Assembly (NCBI RefSeq): GCF_004010195.1
Contig: NC_057719.1
Span: 47,516,331 to 47,562,878, forward strand
Length of the DNA stretch: 46,548 nucleotides
Source: Chiloscyllium plagiosum
Taxonomy: Eukaryota
Direction of reading: 5' to 3'
The notes under the pieces are model-generated. The model had not been told where the DNA came from. It worked only from the letters and a program-made list of their open reading frames with translations, and ran no database searches. A program made the translations under genes and the position numbers. Below, one piece after another: positions 708-35,323 of this stretch (positions are counted from its first letter, which is position 1; every line of letters starts with the position of its first letter).

Positions 708-1144
708 AGTAAATGATTGTTGATTTGCTCTTTGTGTATCATTTAAGAAGGCCATGAATGGTGGTACCGAGTAAAGACGTGTGCATTAGAATAACATGGC
801 TTCAGACTCTGGTGAATATTAGTTTGACCCAACTCCATCTATAAGCCGAGGAGCAATTTTACATGGTTTTCAAGCTTCTCCTAAACTCTGTAGAACATGT
901 GGATTTTTTGGGAATATCAGTGAATTCCACTGGTGAGCAATAGATTTATGATATGTATAACCTAGGAAACAATGTTACAATGTTCGAATCACAAAATTTG
1001 GGTCTCAATGCAAAATTGTTACTGAATTAAAACTTCGAGTCATTTATGTACATGTTTGAAACTGACATTTGGTAAGTTTGCAAATTTTAGGCTTTGACAC
1101 TGCACTGCTTTCAATGAATAACTGTTGTTAAATATGTTTTCTAG

Positions 1145-1408
1145 TTCTCTCAGGCCAGACACACCACAGCCCTCTGAAGCGTTCAGTATCTCTTACCCCT
1201 CCAATCAATGTGCCAAATCAGCCTCTAGGTCATGGATGGATGTCCCATGAAGACCTGCGAGCAAGGGGACCTCAGTGTATCCCATCAGACCATGCTCCCC
1301 TCTCCCCACAGAGCAGTGTTGCTTCCTCGGGTAGTGGTGGAAGTGAGCATCTTGAAGATCAAGCAGTGACACGTAATACATTCCAAGAGGAGGGCAGTGG
1401 CATGAAAG
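1145..1408 (+). CDS. SAMD4A: SAMD4A (Smaug homolog 1) coding exon, pre-SAM linker; 264 nt, phase 1-1
   Basis: ctAG acceptor at 1143-1144, GTgggt donor at 1409. Translates (x)[87 protein letters not shown](D), which I recognise as nearly identical to vertebrate SAMD4A. Confidence 0.95.
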
Positions 1409-4400
1409 GTGGGTAATTGTTGTTAGAATGATGTTGACTGTAGAATATACATTTCTGAACAGGTTGTGCAGAAAGTGGAGTGGAGAGTCTGTTAATCAAT
1501 ACTACAGTGGATTTTGATAGTTGTTCTGCTTTTTACTGAAGTGTTGATTTTGTTCGAAACTTCAAGGATTACGTAACTCTGGATTCAGACACCAGATTTT
1601 AATGTAAGCTAACAATATGTTTGAGTCTAGAGTTTAATCAAAATAAGGCAACTTTTGTGAGGAAAACAAATGAGTGAATTAGTGAAAACTTGCACCACAA
1701 AGCAATTTGTTTTCATTGTTATTAATAGTTACTACTTCAACATGTAATGCGTCGTATTATGCTCCAGTGAATAGGGAAGAAAAGGAGCTTGTAATAATAG
1801 CCAAATAACACAAGTCAAATACTGGTACATATGGAACAGAGCAAAGAGGCTTTTCTTTCGATAACTGTTCAAAATCTGTGGTGCATTTGTTAGATAGCAA
1901 GTGGATTCAGTGTCAATAGGCAATTAATAAGCACTGTGTGGTATATAGCAATGGTATGTCTGTCTTATTGAATGTAAGGTCTCATAGAACTTGCAGATAA
2001 AAAAGGTTTCTATTTAAAACATCTAAATAATATTTGTATTAATATGCACAGCTGTTGAATAAGGATTTGTCTTTTACGCATTTTACGACACCCTAACTGC
2101 TGCTGATGAGTAGTAGAACAATTGTAAGTTCATCTTCCTGGTTGTTAGTTAATGGTATCCTTCCCTTTTGGAATGAAAAAGATGCATTTGATTTCAGTAT
2201 CCATATTTGGCTGGCCAAAATTAAAGTTTTAAGATCAGCTCAGTGTCATGTCTAGACTCTATGCAGTGCTACGCTTGTTCTTTCAAAAGAACAGTTATGA
2301 GTTGAGATTCCAACTTTTAGTGACTGAAAATAAATTGAGATCACAATAATGCTTTTATTTAGCTGACCAACCTGGCTGTTGTCTCAACTAGTGTTAATGT
2401 CAAAATAACTATTCTCTGGTCAAACGACATGGCCTTGGTATCCAACACAGCTGTTTGTGGTATGTGATCTTTCAGGAACTTTTTTGTCACTGTACTGCTT
2501 TCTCTCCTGGTAAATCAGTATATTGATAGCTCAGGACGATTAGCTTCAGATGGTTGCTAAGTGATAAAATATACCCAGTTAAAAGTCACCACAGGATATT
2601 GATGAGTTGGGTAGCTGAATGCGTCGTAAGTTGCAATAAATCTTTTTTATTAAAAAAAATTGTAGCAGCCGAGACCAAAATTATCCAAACAAAAGTTTCT
2701 GAAACAGACTTTCCAATTTTAAAATATTGGATGATGACATTGAAAGAACTTTGATAGAGGAAAAAATTTTTTTGTAGAACATTGTCACAGAACAAATTTG
2801 AAAGTGCATGCAGTTGATTTGTTTGCAATGAATGATTGTTCAATCTTCAAGAGGGTTCAAATGTTGTAGAAAATAAGCAGACATTCTTGCCAGGTTTGGT
2901 ATATTTACAGTCAAGGCTAATAATGTCACCAAGAGTTTCAGGTAGAAACTAGACTAATTCTTTTAGGCTTGTTCAGAAAAGATACATGTATGATGGCTTG
3001 AATCTTTCTCTCTAACTTGTAAGTGTTAAAAATAGCTGTATGATTGAATTGTGACAGTGCAATCCTCCAGAAGGCAACAGTATGCCTTACAATCTGGCAT
3101 GGTTATATGGAGGATCTTGGTTGTTATCTTTATATAGCATCACTGACTTCTGGTATGTTCACATTCTGGTTGGTCACTGGATAACTTTAAACTGTTGAAA
3201 CATTTTTTTCTTGACTAGTTAGCTATGTAGGCACCCTGTGGCAGGCATATTTAAGGAAAGTTGGGATGAGGTTTATGTTGCCATCTTCTGGTGATTAAAG
3301 ATGTATGGTAGTGGTCCAGCTTTAAGATTTAGAGAGCGAAATTCCATTTTAAGATTTCTTGTGCAGTAGGAGTTGTTCAAAAGCTCAACATCGTAGGCTG
3401 TTGCCATAAGTACTCGACTGAGAAAGGAAAAATAATTATTGTTTTATTGAGTGAACTAAATCAATTTTGACCAAGAGAGTAAGACAGGATAACAGATTGG
3501 TGAGAAGTGAAATATTTTCAATGAAAATAAATTCTTATGTGATAAAGCACCATCTAAATGCATTTGAAAATGCCTCCAATGCAATTAATTACTTTTCAGT
3601 ACAGTCAATGTTATACAGTGTGAGTAGGATTAAAAACTGGTTCCAAAATGCACATGTCTGTATGGGGACATATTTAAATAGATAAAATAATACTGGCACT
3701 TGTCTGCCAGGTTGCAAAAAAGTGACTAAGGAATCCTGTTGTGAAAACTTGGAGCTGTCTTTTGGTGGCACACCTCTCCCACTTGCTGGTACATCCACTC
3801 CCACCTTCTGCACCACCTCCAGCTGTTACAGAATGTATAAAATCCTAATTAGATCAAGGTGACCAATTTTCATGACTGACAAAATGAATCTGCACCATGT
3901 TGTTTCATTAACAGGAAGTAACTTATAACTGTTTCACACTAGCTTAATCAAATAACAAAAAAAAATCCCATTCCACTTAAACTATAACCCTTTTTAAAAA
4001 AAAACCCACGAATATGTACATACTCATTTGAAACAGACAGCTATAGATGCAAAGAAAAAATGAGCGAGATTATGCAATCAGCCCATTGAGCCCATTCTGT
4101 CATTCAACGTGATCTTTTCTCTTAGCATAGAACCATTACCGCCTCTTTCTTCCCCCCCCCCCGCCAACCATGCTTCTTAACACCTTTCTTTCTGTAGGAA
4201 TCTATTTATTAATTCTTAAATATATTCATGACTTTGCCTGAAACCACTTTGAGGGCAAGAATTCCACAGACTCACCATGCTGTATGATTGAAGAAAATTT
4301 GTCTTTTCTTTGTATGAAATGGTTTGCCACACATACTGAGTCAACAGTACTTTGTTCCGTACCTTCTTGGCAGACCAGACTTTATCTCTGCATTCAATTT

Positions 4401-4871: not shown

Positions 4872-5199
4872 AGGGGTGGCACAATGGTTAGCACCGTTGC
4901 CCCCCAGACCCAGGGACCCAGGTTCAATTCCACCCTCTGGTGACTGTGGAGTTTGCACTTTCTCCCCGTGTCAGTGTGGATTTTCTCCAGTTGCTCGGGT
5001 TTCCTCCCACAATGCAAAGATTTGCAAGTTTGGTGGGTTGACCATGCTAAATTGTCTGTAGTGTCTACGGGTGTGCAGGCTAGCTGGATTAGCCATGAGA
5101 AATGCAGCATTACAGGGATGGGGTAAGGCGGTGGGACAGGATGGGATGCTGTTCAGAGGGCCAGTGTGGATCAGATGGGTCTAATGACCTGCTTCCACA
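4872..5199 (+). mobile_element. HE1-type tRNA-derived V-SINE
   Basis: tRNA-like head (tggttagcac A-box, ggttcaattcc B-box), V-domain (tgtggagtttgcac..tctccccgtgtc..gggtttcctccc) and CR1-like tail. Confidence 0.85.
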
Positions 5200-5207
5200 C
5201 TAAAGAT

Positions 5208-8063
5208 AGTATTACAGTGGTGGAAAGGACGATGGATGAGGACTTGCCATCTGAGGTAGTTTGGGCTGAGGTTAGGAATAGGAAAGGTGAGGTCACCCTG
5301 TTAGGAGTCTTTTACAGGCCTCCTAATAGTCCTAGAATCATTGAAGAAAGGATAGGGAAGGTGATTCAGGAGATGAGTGACAGTAATAGGGTGGTTGTTA
5401 TGGGGGACTTTAACTTTCCTGATATTGATTGGGAAAGCTATAGCTCAAGTTCGTTAGATGGGTCAGTGTTTGTTCAATGTGTGCAGGAGAGTTTCCTGAC
5501 ACAATATGTAGACAGGCCAACAAGAGGTGAGGCCATACTGGATTTGGTTCTGGGTAACGAACCAGGCCAGGTGTTAGAATTAGAGGAAGGTGAGCACTTT
5601 GGGGATAGTGACCATAATTCGGTGATTTTTACACTCGTGATGGAGAGGGATAAGTGTGTACTACAGGGCAAGAATTATAGCTGGGGTAAGGGAAATTATG
5701 ATGCGGTGAGGCATGACTTAGGATGTGTGGCTTGGAAAAGGAGACTCCAAGGCAAGAGTGTAAATGATATGTGGAACTTGTTCAAGGGGCAACTATTGAG
5801 TGCCCTTGATAATTATGTACCTGTCAGGCAGGAAGGAAAGGGTCGTGCGAGGGAGCCGTGGTTTAATAAGGAATTGGAATCCCTTGTTAAAGGGAAGAGG
5901 GCGGCCTATCTCAAGATGAGACGTGAAGGTTCAATTGGAGCGATAGAGAGTTATAGGGTAGCCAGGAAGGACCTGAAGAGAGAGCTAAAAGCAGCAAGGA
6001 GGGGACATGAAAGGTCCTTAGTAGATAGGATTAGGGAAAACCCTAAGGCTTTCTATAGGTATGTCAGGAATAAAAGAATGACTAGGGTAGGAATAGGTCC
6101 AGACAAGGATAGTAGGGGGAAGTTGCGTGTGGAGGCGGAAGAGATTGGGGAGACACTGAATGAATACTTTTCTTCAGTATTCACTCAGGAACAGGGCATT
6201 GTTGTCGATGAAAATACTGAGGCACAAATAAGTAGAATGGATGGCTTTGAGGTATGTAGAGAAGAGGTGTTGGAAATCCTGGAAAAGGTGAAAATAGATA
6301 AGTCCCCTGGGCCTGATGGCATTTATCCTAGGATTCTCTGGGAAGCAAGGGAGGAGATTGCAGAGCCATTGGCCTTGATTTTTATGTCCTCTTTGTCTAC
6401 AGGAGTAGTCCCAGAAGACTGGAGGATAGCAAATGTGGTTCCCTTGTTCAAAAAGGGGAGTAGGGATAGCCCTAGTAACTATAGGCCGGTGAGTCTCACT
6501 TCCGTTGTGGGCAAAGTCTTAGAGAGAATTGTAAGGGATAGGAGTTATGCACATCTGGATAGGAATAATGTGATCAAGGACAGTCAGCATGGTTTTGTGA
6601 AGGGCAAGTCGTGCATCACAAACCTTATTGAATTCTTTGAAAAGGTGACGAAGGAGGATGATGAGGGGAAAGCGGTAGATGTGGTATATATGGATTTTAG
6701 TAAGGCGTTTGATAAGGTTCCCCATGGTAGGCGACTGCAGAAAATACGGAGATATGGCATTGAGGATGAGTTGGAGGTTTGGATTAGGAATTGGCTAGAT
6801 GGAAGAAGACAGAGGGTAGTAGTTGATGGCAAAGTTTCTTCATGGAGTGCCGTCACTAGCGGTGTTCCGCAAGGATCTGTTTTGGGACCATTGCTGTTTG
6901 TCATTTTTATAAATGACCTGGAAGAGGGGTAAGNNNNNNNNNNNNNNNNNNNNNNNNNNNNNNNNNNNNNNNNNNNNNNNNNNNNNNNNNNNNNNNNNNN
7001 NNNNNNNNNNNNNNNNNNNNNNNNNNNNNNNNNNNNNNNNNNNNNNNNNNNNNNNNNNNNNNNNNNNNNNNNNNNNNNNNNNNNNNNNNNNNNNNNNNNN
7101 NNNNNNNNNNNNNNNNNNNNNNNNNNNNNNNNNNNNNNNNNNNNNNNNNNNNNNNNNNNNNNNNNNNNNNNNNNNNNNNNNNNNNNNNNNNNNNNNNNNN
7201 NNNNNNNNNNNNNNNNNNNNNNNNNNNNNNNNNNNNNNNNNNNNNNNNNNNNNNNNNNNNNNNNNNNNNNNNNNNNNNNNNNNNNNNNNNNNNNNNNNNN
7301 NNNNNNNNNNNNNNNNNNNNNNNNNNNNNNNNNNNNNNNNNNNNNNNNNNNNNNNNNNNNNNNNNNNNNNNNNNNNNNNNNNNNNNNNNNNNNNNNNNNN
7401 NNNNNNNNNNNNNNNNNNNNNNNNNNNNNNNNNNNNNNNNNNNNNNNNNNNNNNNNNNNNNNNNNNNNNNNNNNNNNNNNNNNNNNNNNNNNNNNNNNNN
7501 NNNNNNNNNNNNNNNNNNNNNNNNNNNNNNNNNNNNNNNNNNNNNNNNNNNNNNNNNNNNNNNNNNNNNNNNNNNNNNNNNNNNNNNNNNNNNNNNNNNN
7601 NNNNNNNNNNNNNNNNNNNNNNNNNNNNNNNNNNNNNNNNNNNNNNNNNNNNNNNNNNNNNNNNNNNNNNNNNNNNNNNNNNNNNNNNNNNNNNNNNNNN
7701 NNNNNNNNNNNNNNNNNNNNNNNNNNNNNNNNNNNATAAGATGATTAGGGGGTTAGATAGGGTTGACAGTGTGAACCTTTTCCCGCGTATGGAGTCGGGT
7801 ATTACAAGGGGGCATAGCTTTAAATTAAGGGGGGGTAGATATAGGACTGAAGTTAGGGGTAGGTTCTTCACTCAGCGAGTCGTAAGTTCATGGAATGCCC
7901 TGCCAGTAGCAGTGGTGGACTTTCCCTCTTTATGGGCATTTAAGCGGGCATTGGATAGGTATATGGAGGATAGTGGGTTAGTATAGGTTAGGTGGGCTTG
8001 GATCGGCGCAACATCGAGGGCCAAAGGGCCTGTACTGCGCTGTATTCTTCTATGTTCTATGTT
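5208..8063 (+). mobile_element. Young 5'-truncated CR1 LINE: partial APE endonuclease plus reverse transcriptase ORF2, spanning an assembly gap
   Basis: Uninterrupted frame to 6932 with [41 protein letters not shown] and [16 protein letters not shown]2 C-terminus ends at 7986, followed by a (ttctatg)n tail. Candidate TSD ctaaagat at 5200-5207 and 8064-8071. Confidence 0.95.
6934..7735. other. Assembly gap (802 N)
   Basis: Run of N inside the CR1 copy. Confidence 1.
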
Positions 8064-9043: not shown

Positions 9044-9463
9044 TAAATGAAAACCGAAAGAACTATTTTTGTGTTACAGAAATGAAAAACCAATTGCTGG
9101 AAAAGCTCGGCAGTTATGGCAGCATCTGTGAAGAGAAATCAGTTAACATTTCTGGTCCAGTGACCCTTGCTCAGAACAGTTCTGAGGAAGGATTGCCACA
9201 CCCAAAACATTAACTCTGATTTCTCTTCACAGATGCTGCCTGACCAGCTGAGCTTTTCCAGCAGGGCAAAAGTGAAGACTGCAGATGCTGGAGATCAGAG
9301 TCTAGATCAGAGTGGTGCTGGCAAAGCACAACAGATCAGGCAGCATCCGAGGAGCAGGAAAGTCGACGTTTCAGGCAAAAGCCCTTCATCAGGAATGAGC
9401 TTTTCCAGCAATTTGTATTTTGTTTCTGATTAACACAAACACAGTTCTTTCGGTTTTTATTTA
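9044..9463. mobile_element. Palindromic PLE-derived mini-element (centre 9178) containing a nested insertion
   Basis: Ends taaatgaaaaccgaaagaact / agttctttcggtttttattta are reverse complements with 1 mismatch. Centre is ctcagaac-a-gttctgag. Both arms carry a degenerate CTGAGGA-AGGGTC-ACTG-GACCC-GAAACGTT-type hammerhead. Confidence 0.85.
9264..9395 (-). mobile_element. PLE pLTR insertion with hammerhead core, nested in the element above
   Basis: 15-bp TSD tgagcttttccagca at 9249-9263 and 9396-9410. Minus strand reads attc-CTGATGA-A-GGGC-TTTT-GCCT-GAAA-CGTC-gact. Confidence 0.88.
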
Positions 9464-9676
9464 GTACAATTTTGTACTGTTCATCAACCTTATTTGAAAT
9501 GTTCTGCATTTAGATGCAGTGCCTTGTGACTTGTCTTTTTGACATTTTTGTTTTTTTGTACTCCAGCCCTATTTAGTGTTCAAGGAGAAAGTGAGGTCTG
9601 CAGATGCTGGAGATCAAAGTTGAAACTTTATTGCTGGAACAGCACAGCAGGTCAGGCAGCATCCAGGGAACAGGAG

Positions 9677-9711
9677 ATTCGACGTTTCGGGCACAGGCCC
9701 TTCTTCAGGAA
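9677..9711 (-). ncRNA. Mirror-image minimal hammerhead motif on the antisense strand
   Basis: Minus strand reads UUC-CUGAAGA-A-GGGC-CUGU-GCCC-GAAACGUC^GAAU. Helix I is only 3 bp. Confidence 0.6.
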
Positions 9712-9712
9712 A

Positions 9713-9752
9713 GGATTCCTGAAGAAGGGCCTGTGCCCGAAACGTCGAATCT
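9713..9752 (+). ncRNA. Minimal type I hammerhead ribozyme motif, predicted cleavage after GUC 9746
   Basis: GGAUUC-CUGAAGA-A-GGGC-CUGU-GCCC-GAAA-C-GUC^-GAAUCU. Helix I GAUUC/GAAUC, conserved CUGANGA and GAAA, 4-bp helix II, loop-less palindromic helix III ACGU. Activity not demonstrated. Confidence 0.75.
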
Positions 9753-9999
9753 CCTGTTCCCTGGATGCTGCCTGACCTGCTGTGCTGTTCCAGCAATAAA
9801 GTTTCAACTATTTAGTGTTCAGCCTTGTGACCTCTGCCTTCCACTTTTCTAGATTTCCTTTGTCTTCATTCCCCTTATGCTTGTCTCTCCCCACTTAGGC
9901 TCCTGTCCCTTTGCTACTCTAACTCAAATCCTTCCCTGCTAATCTACAGATACTGTACAATGACTCCAGTTGCTACTCCAAATGTGAAATGGAATTTGT

Positions 10000-10330: not shown

Positions 10331-10779
10331 TGGTTGAAAAATGTGGTGCTGGAAAAACAGCAGGCCAGGCAGCATCCGAGGAGCAGGAGAATCGACGTTT
10401 CGGGCATAAGCCCTTCTTCAGGAATGAGGCTGGTGTGCCAAGTGGGCTTAGATAAAAGGTAGGGGGGAGAGAATTTGGGAGAGGGGCGCTGGGAATATGA
10501 TAGGTGGAAGGGGGTGAGGGTGATAGGCCGGAGAGGAGGTGGAGGCGAAGAGGTCAGGAAGATGATTGCAGTTCAAGAGGGCGGTGCTGAATCCGGGGGT
10601 TGGCCTCCCCCCTTCCTTTTATCTCAGCCCGCTTGGCACACCAGCCTCATTCTTGAAGAAGGGCTTATGCCCGAAATGTCGATTCTCCTGCTCCTCGGAT
10701 GCTGCCTGGCTTGCTGTGTTTTTCCAGCACCACACGTTTCAACTCTGGTCTCCAGCATCTGCAGTCCTCACTTTCTCTT
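10331..10779. mobile_element. Fold-back PLE element with inverted arms (about 10333-10469 and 10604-10743)
   Basis: Arms are near reverse complements. The minus-strand hammerhead core at about 10389-10426 is intact (CTGAAGA-A-GGGC-TTAT-GCCC-GAAACGTC); the plus-strand copy is mutated (TTGAAGA...GAAATGTC). Possible TSD tttttttcta at 10321-10330 and 10780-10789. Confidence 0.88.
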
Positions 10780-25880: not shown

Positions 25881-26536
25881 TGGAGTTCTAATCATATTAT
25901 CTGAAATTTTTATGTTAAAAGATGGATGTTCTACTGGGTAGTATTCCAAATTTGATAATCTGTTTAGTTATAAATGGGAATAATGAAATGATCAATATAT
26001 AAAAAATCTGCTATCCTGCTTTTTACATCTCTCCTAAAATTTGTAATTTTACGATTCAAAATCATCTTGGATTCTATGAATGGAGTTCCAAATAGTTCCC
26101 TTACAGCAATTCAACATCTATGTCATGAAGTATGCCATGAAATTTACGCATAATATTGTTTATCATCAGAGACAGCCTTTTGTGAAAGGCTGTTTAACTA
26201 AATATTTTTCTTCCAAGCAGAGTTTGGAATGTATGATACAAAAGTACACCAAACTGCTAAATTTAGAAAGTATTTGACATAGCAGATGTGTTGAGTCAGC
26301 CCAACCATTATTGGTTCTGCATTTATGCAGCTGCTCCGGACAATCTTCCGATGATTCAGAGGTAATTTAGCCAGTCACATGGGCTGCCAAATTCATTTTG
26401 AATACCTAGTGTTAAAATATTAGTACTGACTAAGAATTACGACTTCTTACTTTTTGATTAATAAATATGCTAAATACGTTTGATACATAATAAAGGTAAT
26501 TTATCTCTAATAAGCCTGCTATCATTTCAACTACAG

Positions 26537-26646
26537 ATGTTCCAGCATGGCTTAAAAGTTTGCGTCTACATAAGTATGCAGCTCTATTCTCTCAACTAAC
26601 ATATGAAGAAATGATGGCGCTTACAGAAGTACAGTTAGAAGCGCAG
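26537..26646 (+). CDS. SAMD4A: SAMD4A coding exon, N-terminal part of the SAM RNA-binding domain; 110 nt
   Basis: tacAG acceptor and GTatgt donor. G+AT completes Asp, giving [37 protein letters not shown] with the Smaug/Vts1 SAM signature [10 protein letters not shown]. Too short for the ORF track. Confidence 0.97.
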
Positions 26647-28919: not shown

Positions 28920-30021
28920 TTCAGGTCACACAAAAGAGATTGGATGACAGGGTAATTTTTTTCTGACCGTATTGTTGATGTTTTCAGGGATGTTTTTAGG
29001 AATTGTTGCAGGAGAAAAGATTCAAAATGCTATTTCTACCTCCAAGCATATCCTGTCATTCAACCCATGGACCAGGGTGCAAAAGCAACTTTTAAAACTT
29101 ATTGTTTAAGGACAGCATTCAGGGAGCTGATTGTAGCTACTAAAAGGGATAATGAGGACAGTGTTCTTCAATTTTGGAAGAACTTTAATATTAAGAATGA
29201 TATTGGCATCACTATGGAGGCGTGGGGTGATGTCAGTGAGGTCTGCCTGCATGCAGTTTGGCGGAAGATTCTCCCACATTTTATCTTCAAGATTTTAAAG
29301 GTGTTGAACTATCCGAGGAGCTTCCAGCAATCAAAGAATATTGTGTCAGTCTTGCAAAGCAAGTTGGATTTGAAGAAGTGGTGACTGATCTACAACAAAT
29401 TGTTGCTGTGGGGGGAATTGAAGCTCAAGATGAAGACTATCAAGTCCAGGATCAGCACCACGAGAACTTCCCATTTCTATCCTGAGAAGTTGAGAAGCAG
29501 TGCAACTCTTAGAAGATAATGACTACAATGCAGAACACAGCAGGATAGCAGTTTGTGGCATAAAGTCTGATATGGCAGTCTATGAACAGCTGCTTCATGA
29601 AGGAAGAAAGATGGCAAAGCAGCAAAAACTAGATGCTTTTTTTTTAAGCCAACCCCTAATAAGCAGCCATCCACTTCTGGGCTAAATATTTTTGTCATAA
29701 TGCTGCACCCAGAATGGCACCTGAGAGTAATGATGCTGATAACACTCAGCCCCCGTCTTAATACAGTACTAAAACTCAGCAAACTCAAACTGATTTAAAG
29801 TGTCACGTTTATTGTATTATTTCACTAAAATATGACTTTAAAATTTATTGACAGTGCTAATGTTTGTTAGGCTAACTACTTTTATTTCAATTTTTACTGA
29901 TGTTTTTGCTCGGTTGCCTCAACTGTGTTTTTCCCATAGACCCGGTTATTTCTATTGCGTGATATTCTATAACACGAGTTTGCACGAGAACGCAACTACT
30001 GTGTTATAGCAGAACAGACTA
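28920..30021 (+). mobile_element. Tigger/pogo-like DNA transposon relic (DDE transposase C-terminal part and right end)
   Basis: IQPMDQGAKATFKTYCLR...FWKNFNI..EAWGDVS..AVWRKILP matches the pogo/Tigger QPMDQG motif. TIR-like end gttatagcagaacagacta at about 30003-30021. Confidence 0.8.
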
Positions 30022-32644: not shown

Positions 32645-34121
32645 TCATAGTCAGTTGAGGAATGATTGGCTCCCCTCTTTGCCTCTTGGTTGGTAACCAC
32701 AGTGTTTTAAAAAGAATTTGCTTCCTAGCTCAATGAGTATTTATGACTGACAAAGGGGTACACAGATCAGTTTTAATACAAGCCTTTAAAGGAAAAAGGA
32801 ATAACTGGTATTAAGTTCAATCCTGCAATGTGGAGATAAGATTTTAAAAAAAACTTTTGAACTCTCGCTCTCCTGTATTCAAGAGTTCTGCATGAGGAAG
32901 TTGCAAAGAGAGAGATGGTTGATTAAATTTAGATCCAAAAGAAGGCCAATTTTACATTGACTTTGTGACTGACGACTTGGACAATTTCAGACCAGAGTTT
33001 TGGATTTTGCATACTTGGCCAGCCAGAATATATGCAGGTACATCATTTCAGAATAGCTAGAGTGATGGACTAAGTCTTCATTATCCACTTGATGTCTTTC
33101 TAGTCCGAGTGACCTGCAAAAAGTAGTTCTTTTCAATGCAATGGTTTATCCTTCTCTTCACATGATCTTCATTTGCAAACTAGCCAGTCATCAAATACAA
33201 TTAGAGGAAACTCTTATTGGCCTAATTGTTTGAACTGATAAGGTTACATGGCCATGGAGTTGCCTTCACAGTCTATTGTCCAAAATGATTGAAATTAGCC
33301 CTGCCTGCACCCAGCTGAATAAAATAATATATCTGTGAATGATTCAGTTGATGGGTCATTTATTCTCATTTAAGTTCATTTCTTTTTCAGCTGGGTAACT
33401 TCCAGACAGCCTGGCTTCTTTTTGATGGACTAGTATTTTTCAGAGTGAGAGCTGTGGCATAGGTCATTTTAAACACTGGTCAGCTTTTTCAAAATTATTC
33501 TACGGTATCAACCCCCACTTTAAAAAACAAGGAATTTTTTATTTAACATACGTTTGTAACACTTACCCTCCCGGAAGGAAATGCTGCAAGCAGTTGAGGT
33601 GTCATCTTCGGGTGTAATGAGGTGGGCATTAGCAAAATAGTTGGGGAAATAGTGAGAGATTGGCAGTAATTAGATTCTCAACATTAAAAACAAGTCTTCC
33701 GAATTGCCAACTTTGGCTTTTGAAGGCTTTTTGCATATATTAATTTAGCGGGGGGGGGAAGTGATGCCTATTACCACTAGACTATTAATCCAGAAAAAGT
33801 TTTGGGGATGGGTTAGAATCCCACTAAGGCAGATGGTGGAATTTGAACTCAATAAAAATTTTGAATGAGGTCTAATGATGACTGTGAAACAATTGTCAGA
33901 AAAACCCATCTGATTTGTGAATGTCACTAATCTCACCTCTAACTGTAAGTATTTGCCAAAATGTACTTGCATGCATGGCTGCTTTGAGACATGTGGAGGT
34001 GAGAGGACAAGCGAGCCTTACAGCCTCCTAATGTTTGTGACATGGCTCGTGCTGCATTAATTGGAATCCCTACGTCAAAGATTCACTTTGAGGCTTTTTT
34101 TAGAATCCTTCATCATTGTAC

Positions 34122-35323
34122 CTGGAGGATAGCAAATGTGGTTCCCTTGTTCAAGAAGGGGAGTAGGGATAACCCTAGTAACTATAGGCCGGTGAGTCTC
34201 ACTTCTGTTGTGGGCAAAGTCTTAGAGAGAATTGTAAGGGATAGGATTTATGCACATCTGGATAGGAATAATGTGATCAAGGATAGTCAGCATGGTTTTG
34301 TGAAGGGCAGGTCGTGCCTCACAAACCTTATTGAATTCTTTGAAAAGGTGACGAAGGAGGTTGATGAGGGGAAAGCGGTAGATGTGGTATATATGGATTT
34401 TAGTAAGGCGTTTGATAAGGTTCCCCATGGTAGGCTACTGCAGAAAATACGGAGATATGGCATTGAGGGTGAGTTGGAGGTTTGGATTAGAAATGGGCTG
34501 GATGGAAGAAGACAGAGGGTAGTAGTTGATGGCAAAGTTTCTTCATGGAGTGCCGTCACTAGCGGTGTTCCACAAGGATCTCTTTTGGGACCATTGCTGT
34601 TTGTCATTTTTATAAATGACCTGGAAGAGGGGTTAGAAGGTTGGGTAAGCAAGTTTGCGGATGATACGAAAGTCGAAGGAGTTGTTGACAGTGAGGAAGG
34701 ATGTGGCAGGTTACAGCAGGATATAGAGAAGCTGCAGAGCTGGGCAGAAAGGTGGCAAATGGAATACAATGTAGCTAAGTGTGAGGTGACTCACTTTGGG
34801 AAGAATAACAAAAAGAGACTCTGGTGCGGCCGGATCTGGAGTATTGTGTGCAGTTTTGGTCGCCATACTATAGGAAGGATGTGGTGGCACTGGAACGGGT
34901 GCAGAGGAGGTTTACTAGGATGTTGCCTGGTATGGTAGAAAGATCGTATGTGGAAAGGCTGAGGCACTTGGGGTTGTTTTCATTGGAGAAAAGATGGTTT
35001 AGGGGTGACTTGATAGAGGTGTACAAGATGATTAGGGGTTTAGATAGGGTCGACAGTGAGAATCTTTTTCCAAGGGGGCATAGCTTTAAATTAAGGGGTG
35101 GTAGGTAAAGGACAGTTGTTAGGGGTAGGTTCTTTACTCAGCGAGTCGTGAGTTCATGGAATGCCCTGCCAGTAGCAGTGGTGGACTCTCCCTCTTTATG
35201 GGCATTTAAGCAGGCATTGGATAGGCATATGGAGGATAGTGGGCTAGTGTAGGTTAGGTGGGCTTGGATCGGCGCAACATCGAGGGCCAAAGGACCTGTA
35301 CTGCGCTGTATTGTTCTATGTTC
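34122..35323 (+). mobile_element. Young CR1 copy (RT to 3' tail) with internal deletions, near-identical to 5208-8063
   Basis: [13 protein letters not shown]...SKFADDTKV; nucleotide sequence almost the same as 6419-6930 and 7736-8060; ttctatgttc tail. Confidence 0.95.

What the first reader, a model, noticed from the sequence alone, without database searches (positions are those of the whole stretch)
9569..9821. Perfect 94-bp fold-back mini-retroelement with a hammerhead core on both strands inside the SAMD4A intron
Seen: zero-mismatch inverted arms (9618-9711 / 9716-9809, 4-nt spacer), a perfect 14-bp TSD, and on the gene's sense strand GGAUUC-CUGAAGA-A-GGGC-CUGU-GCCC-GAAA-C-GUC^GAAUCU. Known: PLEs carry minimal type I hammerheads with palindromic helix III that work as dimers, PLE insertions often have inverted ends, and an extra A after A9 is tolerated in a viroid hammerhead. 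Inference: this is a recent, non-coding insertion of about 227 bp. Its transcript in either direction contains both the ribozyme and its exact antisense, so the hairpin would lock the ribozyme and form long dsRNA. Such self-silencing cassettes could be tolerated in introns and might spread as their own MITE/retrozyme-like class.
Basis: partly seen in the sequence, partly recalled or inferred. Interest (0 to 1): 0.8.

Follow-up and report, generated by a model that had tools for sequence, protein, structure and literature searches.

The report
Twin-primed Penelope retroelement stub hairpin
This perfect hairpin is two short copies of the end of a very common Penelope-like jumping gene joined head to head, not a new self-spreading element, and the many such scars in this genome likely form when the element copies the front of one RNA from both sides of the cut chromosome.

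Summary
In detail: 94-bp perfect arms, a 14-bp target duplication and a minimal hammerhead motif on both strands, in an intron of a SAM-domain (SAMD4A-like) gene. The idea that it spreads as its own MITE/retrozyme-like class is not supported. Both arms are letter-for-letter the 3' end of an RT + GIY-YIG Penelope-like element (Neptune-type linker). An arm 25-mer has 19,180 exact hits, but the exact centre occurs only twice. In the first 100 hits, 3' ends sit at two sites (+94-97 and +129-135) and 49 of 100 5' ends sit at -3..+5, just before the hammerhead; only 6 lie near its cut site. All 30 of 30 head-to-head insertions pair one tailed with one tail-less arm. Arms share a subfamily marker (688 AA, 41 BB, 4 AB; 81 AB expected at random). 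Best reading (inferred): both cut target strands prime reverse transcription at two sites on same-source RNA, run off its 5' end and are end-joined, so each hairpin is built anew. The architecture is known for Penelope-like elements; the value is genomic evidence on an open mechanism. Cleavage, RNA start, editing and polymorphism are not shown.

The parts
9569..9582 (.). Target-site duplication, left copy (14 nt)
9583..9711 (-). Tailed arm: positions +2..+130 of the parent Penelope-like element's end unit (+1 = the A four letters before the hammerhead core)
   Evidence: exact match to the 3' end of RT/endonuclease-bearing copy L146 and to L051
9583..9617 (-). 35-nt 'tail' between the two inferred reverse-transcription start sites (+95 and +130)
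   Evidence: bimodal 3' ends in 100 arms; meaning of the tail from PMC11167929
9677..9711 (-). Minimal type I hammerhead motif on the - strand (helix I 3 bp; predicted cut 9681/9680)
   Evidence: activity untested
9712..9714 (.). Three junction letters not present in the parent at this place; likely a short templated insert made during end-joining
   Evidence: similar inserts at other centres
9715..9809 (+). Tail-less arm: positions +1..+95 of the parent end unit
   Evidence: exact match to L146, L150, L149, L140, L051
9715..9750 (+). Minimal type I hammerhead motif: helix I 5' 9715-9718, core 9719-9725, extra A 9726, helix II 9727-9738, 9739-9746 with palindromic helix III, predicted cut after 9746, helix I 3' 9747-9750
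   Evidence: matches the min-HHR features in PMC4209133; activity untested
9808..9821 (.). Target-site duplication, right copy (first 2 nt shared with the element's end)
1132..1416 (+). Frame holding the upstream host exon (SAMD4A-like; name recalled)
26527..26637 (+). Downstream host exon, start of the SAM domain

Best explanation
The insertion is two short copies of the end unit of an abundant RT + GIY-YIG Penelope-like element joined head to head, likely built in one event when both strands of the cut target primed reverse transcription on same-source RNA. Shown: both arms are exact pieces of the parent's end; 3' ends fall at two sites 35 nt apart; 5' ends pile up at +1, just before the hammerhead core; each pair has one tailed and one tail-less arm; the arms share subfamily markers; centres are not inherited. 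Inferred: the endonuclease makes a staggered cut of about 14 nt; one strand primes at +130 and the other at +95; both cDNAs run off the RNA's 5' end at +1 (probably a transcription start in a TCATTCC initiator-like motif, comparable to retroviral strong-stop DNA); the two cDNA 3' ends are joined through 1-2 nt of microhomology or a short templated insert. The hairpin is then most likely a dead-end scar, and the hammerhead rides along because it is the first 36 nt of the RNA.
For: Parent: L146 (749-aa frame) and L150 (893 aa) carry RVT_1 plus a C-terminal GIY-YIG match, with a CX4CxxC linker; L146 ends in both arms exactly. Ends of the first 100 listed hits: 3' at +94-97 in 36 and at +129-135 in 57; 5' at -3..+5 in 49 (25 at +1/+2), against 3 in the 8 nt upstream of that and 6 near the ribozyme cut. 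30 of 30 head-to-head insertions are tailed + tail-less; free choice of start site gives about 2e-10. The same holds for 14 of 14 older-subfamily copies picked by centre. Marker counts AA 688, BB 41, AB 4 against 81 expected; none of the 4 is a clean A/B chimera; rare variants are mirrored in 3 of 15 AA loci. 26 of the 50 listed AA centres and 32 of 41 BB centres leave a loop of only 0-1 nt, which fits annealing of two ends and not self-priming. The tail-less arm reaches further 5' than the tailed arm in 17 of 30 (16 after removing L066, an indel artefact); the reverse in 7. L121 has two full arms separated by 135 nt of neighbouring LINE DNA inside a 15-bp duplication. Tail-less single arms exist (15 of 39). 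In vitro, the anole element PAc extends both strands and starts at two sites that bound the tail (PMC11167929).
Against: No biochemical test here. Raw poly(A) single-cell reads (X22: 536 laid; X23: 0) show no place where many molecules begin, so the RNA start at +1 is not shown. No consistent extra G (cap mark) precedes +1. 17 of 100 arms extend upstream of -3, so some templates include upstream sequence. Marker concordance is also expected if subfamilies A and B were active at different times, or if the arms were homogenised afterwards. Unequal arms could come from later deletion at the centre. The 17:7 asymmetry is not significant (p = 0.064). PAc showed no strand difference in start-site use in vitro. 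L056 and L077 share 577 bp, including centre and flank, so a palindromic copy was duplicated at least once.
Confidence: 0.7

Rival explanations
1. Fold-back: one cDNA is primed at the tail, runs off the RNA, snaps back and is copied as DNA; the second arm is trimmed or resolved at +95 by the endonuclease (akin to the self-priming and endonuclease-resolution ideas in PMC3846280 and PMC8557442).
For: It explains 30 of 30 tailed + tail-less pairs and mirrored variants equally well. Short templated inserts at centres show that ends do realign.
Against: 0-1 nt loops in 26 of 50 and 32 of 41 centres are sterically unlikely for self-priming (established knowledge). In 16-17 of 30 the tail-less arm holds sequence absent from the tailed arm. 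L121 has foreign filler between two full arms. L100 has only a +109..+130 stub beside a near-full tail-less arm.
Confidence: 0.17
2. One reading: the 227-bp hairpin is transcribed and re-inserted whole, as its own MITE/retrozyme-like class.
For: BLAST's top 40 places have the same outer ends and similar centres. One other copy has the identical centre. L056 and L077 share centre, flank and an arm-specific variant.
Against: The top BLAST hits are chosen for likeness to the query. Unbiased hits have centres anywhere from upstream of +1 to beyond +60, and 39 of 72 insertions are single arms. The exact centre occurs at 2 places against 19,180 arm hits. Recurrent centres appear in both haplotypes and both orientations (9 tail-left, 5 tail-right). 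Apart from L056/L077, no arm-specific variant is shared on the same arm type among 30 pairs. There are no head-to-tail hammerhead tandems of the retrozyme kind at this locus.
Confidence: 0.05
3. Twin priming as in the best explanation, but the pile-up at +1 is a reverse-transcriptase block or a processing site (bound protein, splice or nuclease end), not a transcription start.
For: No RNA start seen in reads; no cap mark. The Drosophila Penelope intron ends at the 5' edge of helix I (PMC4209133).
Against: No AG precedes +1. The motif there fits an initiator (consensus recalled). 6 of 30 copies that run on into the ORF also begin at -1..+3. A structure block would be expected at the 3' side of the ribozyme, where few arms end (6 of 100).
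Confidence: 0.08

Closest known systems
Insertion units of endonuclease-positive Penelope-like elements: pseudo-LTR, adjacent inverted 5'-truncated copy, 30-40 bp tail at one end (PMC8557442 and PMC3846280, passages seen)
   Same: Head-to-head arrangement, 35-nt tail on one end only, target duplication, RT + C-terminal GIY-YIG parent, hammerhead in the terminal unit.
   Different: Here the whole insertion is only the two inverted stubs (no ORF); arm lengths are stereotyped at 95 and 130 nt, and they are counted in the hundreds to thousands.
PAc (Poseidon of Anolis carolinensis) in vitro, PMC11167929 (abstract and main text read; Fig. S2 not seen)
   Same: Two internal RT start sites bounding the tail; both target strands cut and extended; extension length set by the RNA 5' end; hammerhead cleavage not needed for insertion.
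   Different: The parent here has the Neptune/Nematis-type CX4CxxC linker; the ORF appears to start after the tail, not in helix II; genomic pairs use one start site each, a coupling not reported in vitro.
Minimal hammerheads (min-HHR) of metazoan Penelope-like elements, PMC4209133 (results and discussion read)
   Same: Core, extra base after A9, G10.1-C11.1 pair, palindromic helix III; mostly solo motifs; the paper already notes dual motifs about 100-700 bp apart on opposite strands.
   Different: Helix II is 4 bp and helix I 3-4 bp; the two motifs here are back to back.
L1 twin priming (Ostertag and Kazazian 2001; recalled, not read)
   Same: Both target strands prime, giving an inversion inside a target duplication.
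   Different: In L1 the two cDNAs copy different parts of the RNA; here both copy the same 95 nt, which makes a perfect hairpin.
Metazoan non-LTR retrozymes, PMC7229834 (passages seen)
   Same: Short, non-coding, type I hammerhead, may depend on Penelope-like machinery.
   Different: Retrozymes are head-to-tail repeats with canonical hammerheads that give circular RNAs; this is head-to-head, has a minimal hammerhead and is a piece of the autonomous element.

Membership tests
Endonuclease-positive Penelope-like element (parent) | Single ORF with RT followed by a C-terminal GIY-YIG endonuclease | tested here: met
   L146, L150: RVT_1 above cut-off; GIY-YIG E about 3e-4, 21.2-21.5 bits against a cut-off of 22.6 in the long frames, and 27.5 bits in the L074 piece
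Endonuclease-positive Penelope-like element (parent) | Terminal unit repeated before the ORF (pseudo-LTR tandem) | tested here: met
   144 exact tail-to-ORF-start junctions; the unit precedes the ORF start and follows the ORF end. No gap-free full-length copy was recovered.
Endonuclease-positive Penelope-like element (parent) | 30-40 bp tail at one end; inverted 5'-truncated copy | tested here: met
Neptune clade | CX2-5CxxC linker before GIY-YIG plus the CCHH motif | tested here: met
   L146 residue 597 and 635 onward; definition in PMC8557442; the linker is shared with Nematis
Neptune clade | RT groups with Neptune in a tree | not tested
   no reference RTs were fetched
Minimal type I hammerhead | Core boxes, extra base after A9, helix II, palindromic helix III | tested here: met
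   helix II 95.7% paired in 23 copies
Minimal type I hammerhead | Helix I of 4-5 bp kept by covariation | tested here: inconclusive
   69.6% paired; third pair unpaired in 18 of 23; pairs changed on both sides no better than shuffles (69 of 500)
Minimal type I hammerhead | Self-cleavage (as dimer or with protein help) | not testable with these tools
   only 6 of 100 arms begin at +29..+36; no read-end pile-up
MITE | Terminal inverted repeats at both ends; moves as a unit through a DNA transposase | tested here: not met
   35-nt one-sided tail, variable duplication length, centres not inherited, retroelement parent
Non-LTR retrozyme | Head-to-tail repeats of 150-450 bp with canonical hammerheads | tested here: not met
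   head-to-head, minimal hammerhead, part of the autonomous element
Non-LTR retrozyme | Circular monomer RNA | not tested
   the one RNA lay was poly(A) single-cell data on L051 and listed no joints

The most novel reading that the evidence does not exclude
Penelope-like elements integrate by 'one RNA, two primers': a protein dimer holds one RNA, primes one target strand at +130 and the other at +95, and both cDNAs run off the RNA's 5' end as strong-stop DNA. Failing to jump onward leaves these hairpins (roughly 6,000 of this young subfamily by extrapolation). This single mechanism would explain the one-sided tail and the inverted 5' copy seen across the group, and it would seed host introns with perfect dsRNA against the element itself.
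Probability: 0.4. Interest if true: 0.7.

Novelty: new member of a known kind. Interest (0 to 1): 0.45.

Why it matters
How Penelope-like elements make their tails and inverted ends is named as open in PMC8557442, and the steps after priming are unvalidated in PMC11167929. This genome holds a very large, young, near-identical set of such insertions, and it gives sharp rules any model must meet: one tailed plus one tail-less arm, same-source arms, run-off just before the hammerhead, and 0-1 nt loops. These rules can be tested directly in the existing in vitro system. The single locus itself is an ordinary transposon scar with no shown effect on its host gene.

Tried and rejected
Rfam scan: no hammerhead family at E <= 10, only chance hairpin hits. 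An early idea of a separate 134-nt mini-RNA with its own fixed 5' leader (13 hits picked by that leader) was dropped once unbiased hits showed the leader is a recurrent junction insert. BLAST's top 40 places looked like a unit family but are selected for likeness. Run search: no RNA holder listed. The raw-read lay gave reads in both orientations, no start or end pile-ups, and A>G/T>C differences that cannot be told from subfamily variants. Covariation in the hammerhead and in two downstream helices (98.8% and 96.5% paired, mostly invariant): no support beyond shuffles. Search for a gap-free full-length parent among 20 long-frame loci: none found; many have N gaps. A recalled statement on palindromic Penelope remnants in crocodilians was not found in PMC5753468 (passages) or search 20. 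The supplements of PMC11167929 held as text had none of my terms; its Fig. S2 may bear on genomic 5' ends. Literature searches listed no paper proposing twin priming or strong-stop DNA for Penelope-like elements (listings only for papers not named as read); Arkhipova 2006 and Repbase entries were not seen. Presence/absence polymorphism of this insertion remains untested.

Full report
OBSERVATION. The arms 9618-9711 and 9716-9809 are perfectly complementary over 94 nt, with a 14-nt target duplication at 9569-9582 / 9808-9821. The insertion also has 35 unpaired nt (9583-9617) on one side. The RNA is predicted to fold as a single 94-bp hairpin that buries both hammerhead motifs; a 49-nt piece alone forms helices I and II. 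Host exons lie on + at about 1150-1410, 26527-26637 (SAM domain), about 39550 and about 45850, so the site is intronic. The name SAMD4A is recalled. The genome is G000, 3.56 Gb, and the window is on C10; earlier notes call it shark-like, which I did not test.

WHAT THE ARMS ARE. A 25-mer of the arm has 19,180 exact matches, reversed control 0. I fetched the first 100 listed matches (C1, first 18 Mb). Longer copies continue upstream into a pyrimidine-rich 3' region and an endonuclease frame. [quoted passage not shown] L146 ends in both window arms letter for letter. The same unit also stands before the ORF start: 144 exact junction hits, and 6 of the 30 fetched begin at -1..+3. Numbering the A four letters before the hammerhead core as +1, the window element is +2..+130 on the - strand, three junction letters, then +1..+95 on the + strand.

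ENDS. Of 100 arms, 36 end at +94-97, 57 at +129-135 and 7 elsewhere. 49 begin at -3..+5 (25 at +1/+2), 17 upstream of -3, 19 at +6..+28, 6 at +29..+36 (the predicted ribozyme cut is +32/33) and 9 further in. Several older-subfamily copies also begin at +1/+2 with unrelated flank (for example L048, L143, L214, window 27657), though others continue upstream. The copied RNA therefore seems to begin at the front of the hammerhead and to be uncleaved. This fits PMC11167929, where hammerhead mutants did not affect insertion.

NOT A UNIT. The 100 hits give 72 insertions, leaving out the four hits of the gapped cluster L074: 30 head-to-head, 39 single-arm and 3 other. L063 (counted single-arm) and L123 (other) are also head-to-head, each tailed plus tail-less. 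The window's exact centre exists at 2 places, with different flanks. There are 688 hairpins with centres of up to 7 nt; of the 50 listed, 16 have the perfect 6-nt palindromic centre and 10 the 5-nt one. A second haplotype shows the same two centres in 32 of 41. The 5-nt centre occurs in both orientations to the tail (3 and 2 among 15 loci), and a centre like the window's occurs 14 times in an older subfamily, 9 one way and 5 the other. Recurrent centres are thus preferred joining products. One exception: L056 and L077 share 577 bp at 99.3%, including centre and about 125 bp of flank. A rough extrapolation from the first 18 Mb of one contig gives about 14,000 insertions of this subfamily, about 6,000 of them head-to-head.

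RULES OF THE PAIRS. All 30 of 30 pairs have one tailed and one tail-less arm; with the single-arm frequencies (24 tailed, 15 tail-less) free choice gives about 2e-10. A marker at +17 gives 688 AA, 41 BB and 4 AB hairpins against 81 AB expected by random pairing; three of the four are single changes on an A background and one is B on both arms. Rare variants are mirrored in 3 of 15 AA loci. Duplications of 10 nt or more were found automatically in 25 of 30 pairs (12-17 nt) and in 19 of 39 single arms (Fisher p = 0.005). The tail-less arm reaches further 5' in 17 (16 without the indel artefact L066; L056 and L077 are not independent), the tailed arm in 7, p = 0.064. L121 holds two full arms around 135 nt of LINE sequence, 89 nt of which match a neighbouring stretch at 97.8%.

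MECHANISM. In vitro, PAc cuts and extends both target strands, starts at two internal sites that bound the tail, gives products whose length follows the RNA 5' end, and is predicted to be a dimer (PMC11167929). Combining that with the counts above, I infer a staggered cut, priming of one strand at +130 and of the other at +95 on same-source RNA, run-off at +1, and end-joining of the two cDNA ends. Fold-back of one cDNA explains the one-each rule and the mirrored variants as well, but it fits poorly with 0-1 nt loops, with tail-less arms longer than their partner, and with L121. Later central deletion or arm homogenisation cannot be excluded. One RNA molecule against two from the same source cannot be told here, since A and B may not have been active together. 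That +1 is a transcription start rests on an initiator-like motif (consensus recalled; PMC3846280 and PMC2377424 passages report initiator-like or internal promoters in pseudo-LTRs). Reads did not show it: X22 gave 536 laid reads in both orientations and no start pile-up, X23 gave none.

HAMMERHEAD. The motif has the min-HHR features of PMC4209133. Across 23 diverged copies helix II is 95.7% paired and helix I 69.6%, with no covariation beyond shuffles. Activity is untested; that paper found single min-HHRs inactive in vitro.

KNOWN OR NEW. An inverted 5'-truncated copy, a one-sided tail and opposite-strand hammerhead pairs are all described, so this is a new member of a known kind. Eight library searches listed no paper proposing paired priming or strong-stop DNA for these elements; Arkhipova 2006, Repbase and Fig. 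S2 of PMC11167929 were not seen. Papers seen: PMC4209133 and PMC11167929, parts 1-2 of 4 of the text; PMC8557442, PMC3846280, PMC2377424, PMC5753468 and PMC7229834, passages only. Earlier notes of this scan on other windows of the genome reach similar readings; they are not independent support and were seen after my tests.

VERDICT. Interest 0.45.

Noticed in passing
window 10333-10777: Head-to-head insertion of an older subfamily with unequal arms that both extend upstream of +1 (117-nt arms, 94%); again one tailed and one tail-less arm.
   Followed up: partly
window 9044-9463: Old head-to-head insertion of a more distant hammerhead-bearing family, interrupted by a nested copy (9264-9410) with a 15-bp duplication; both arms end in the same 33-nt piece, also seen in L193.
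   Followed up: partly
L056:1367-1943 and L077:640-1216: Two loci share 577 bp at 99.3%: a longer palindromic copy plus about 125 bp of non-element flank, preceded in L077 by endonuclease-region sequence; a palindromic locus was re-copied at least once.
   Followed up: partly
L091, L165, L182, L183: Short copies join the first ~30 codons of the ORF to the 3' region at about the same point, between two end units; possibly a non-autonomous internally deleted derivative.
   Followed up: no
L150:1383-4061 (-): The 893-aa frame starts with four to five near-tandem repeats of a ~40-aa piece of the RT N-terminal region, which suggests repeated template jumps at the 5' junction.
   Followed up: no
L121:757-891: 135 nt of neighbouring LINE DNA captured between two full-length arms.
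   Followed up: yes
window 9764-9795 and the mirrored arm (unit +50..+112): Two nearly invariant predicted helices downstream of the hammerhead frame the +95 start site in all 23 aligned copies; a candidate protein-binding element, no covariation support.
   Followed up: partly
window 5127-6932 and 34003-34938 (+): CR1/L2-type LINE frames (identity recalled from motifs); the first is interrupted by an N gap.
   Followed up: no
window 28956-29384 (+): Frame resembling a pogo/Tigger-type transposase fragment (motif recalled).
   Followed up: no
L138-L157, L160-L184: Long copies of the element often abut N gaps, so long inverted copies are probably under-assembled.
   Followed up: no
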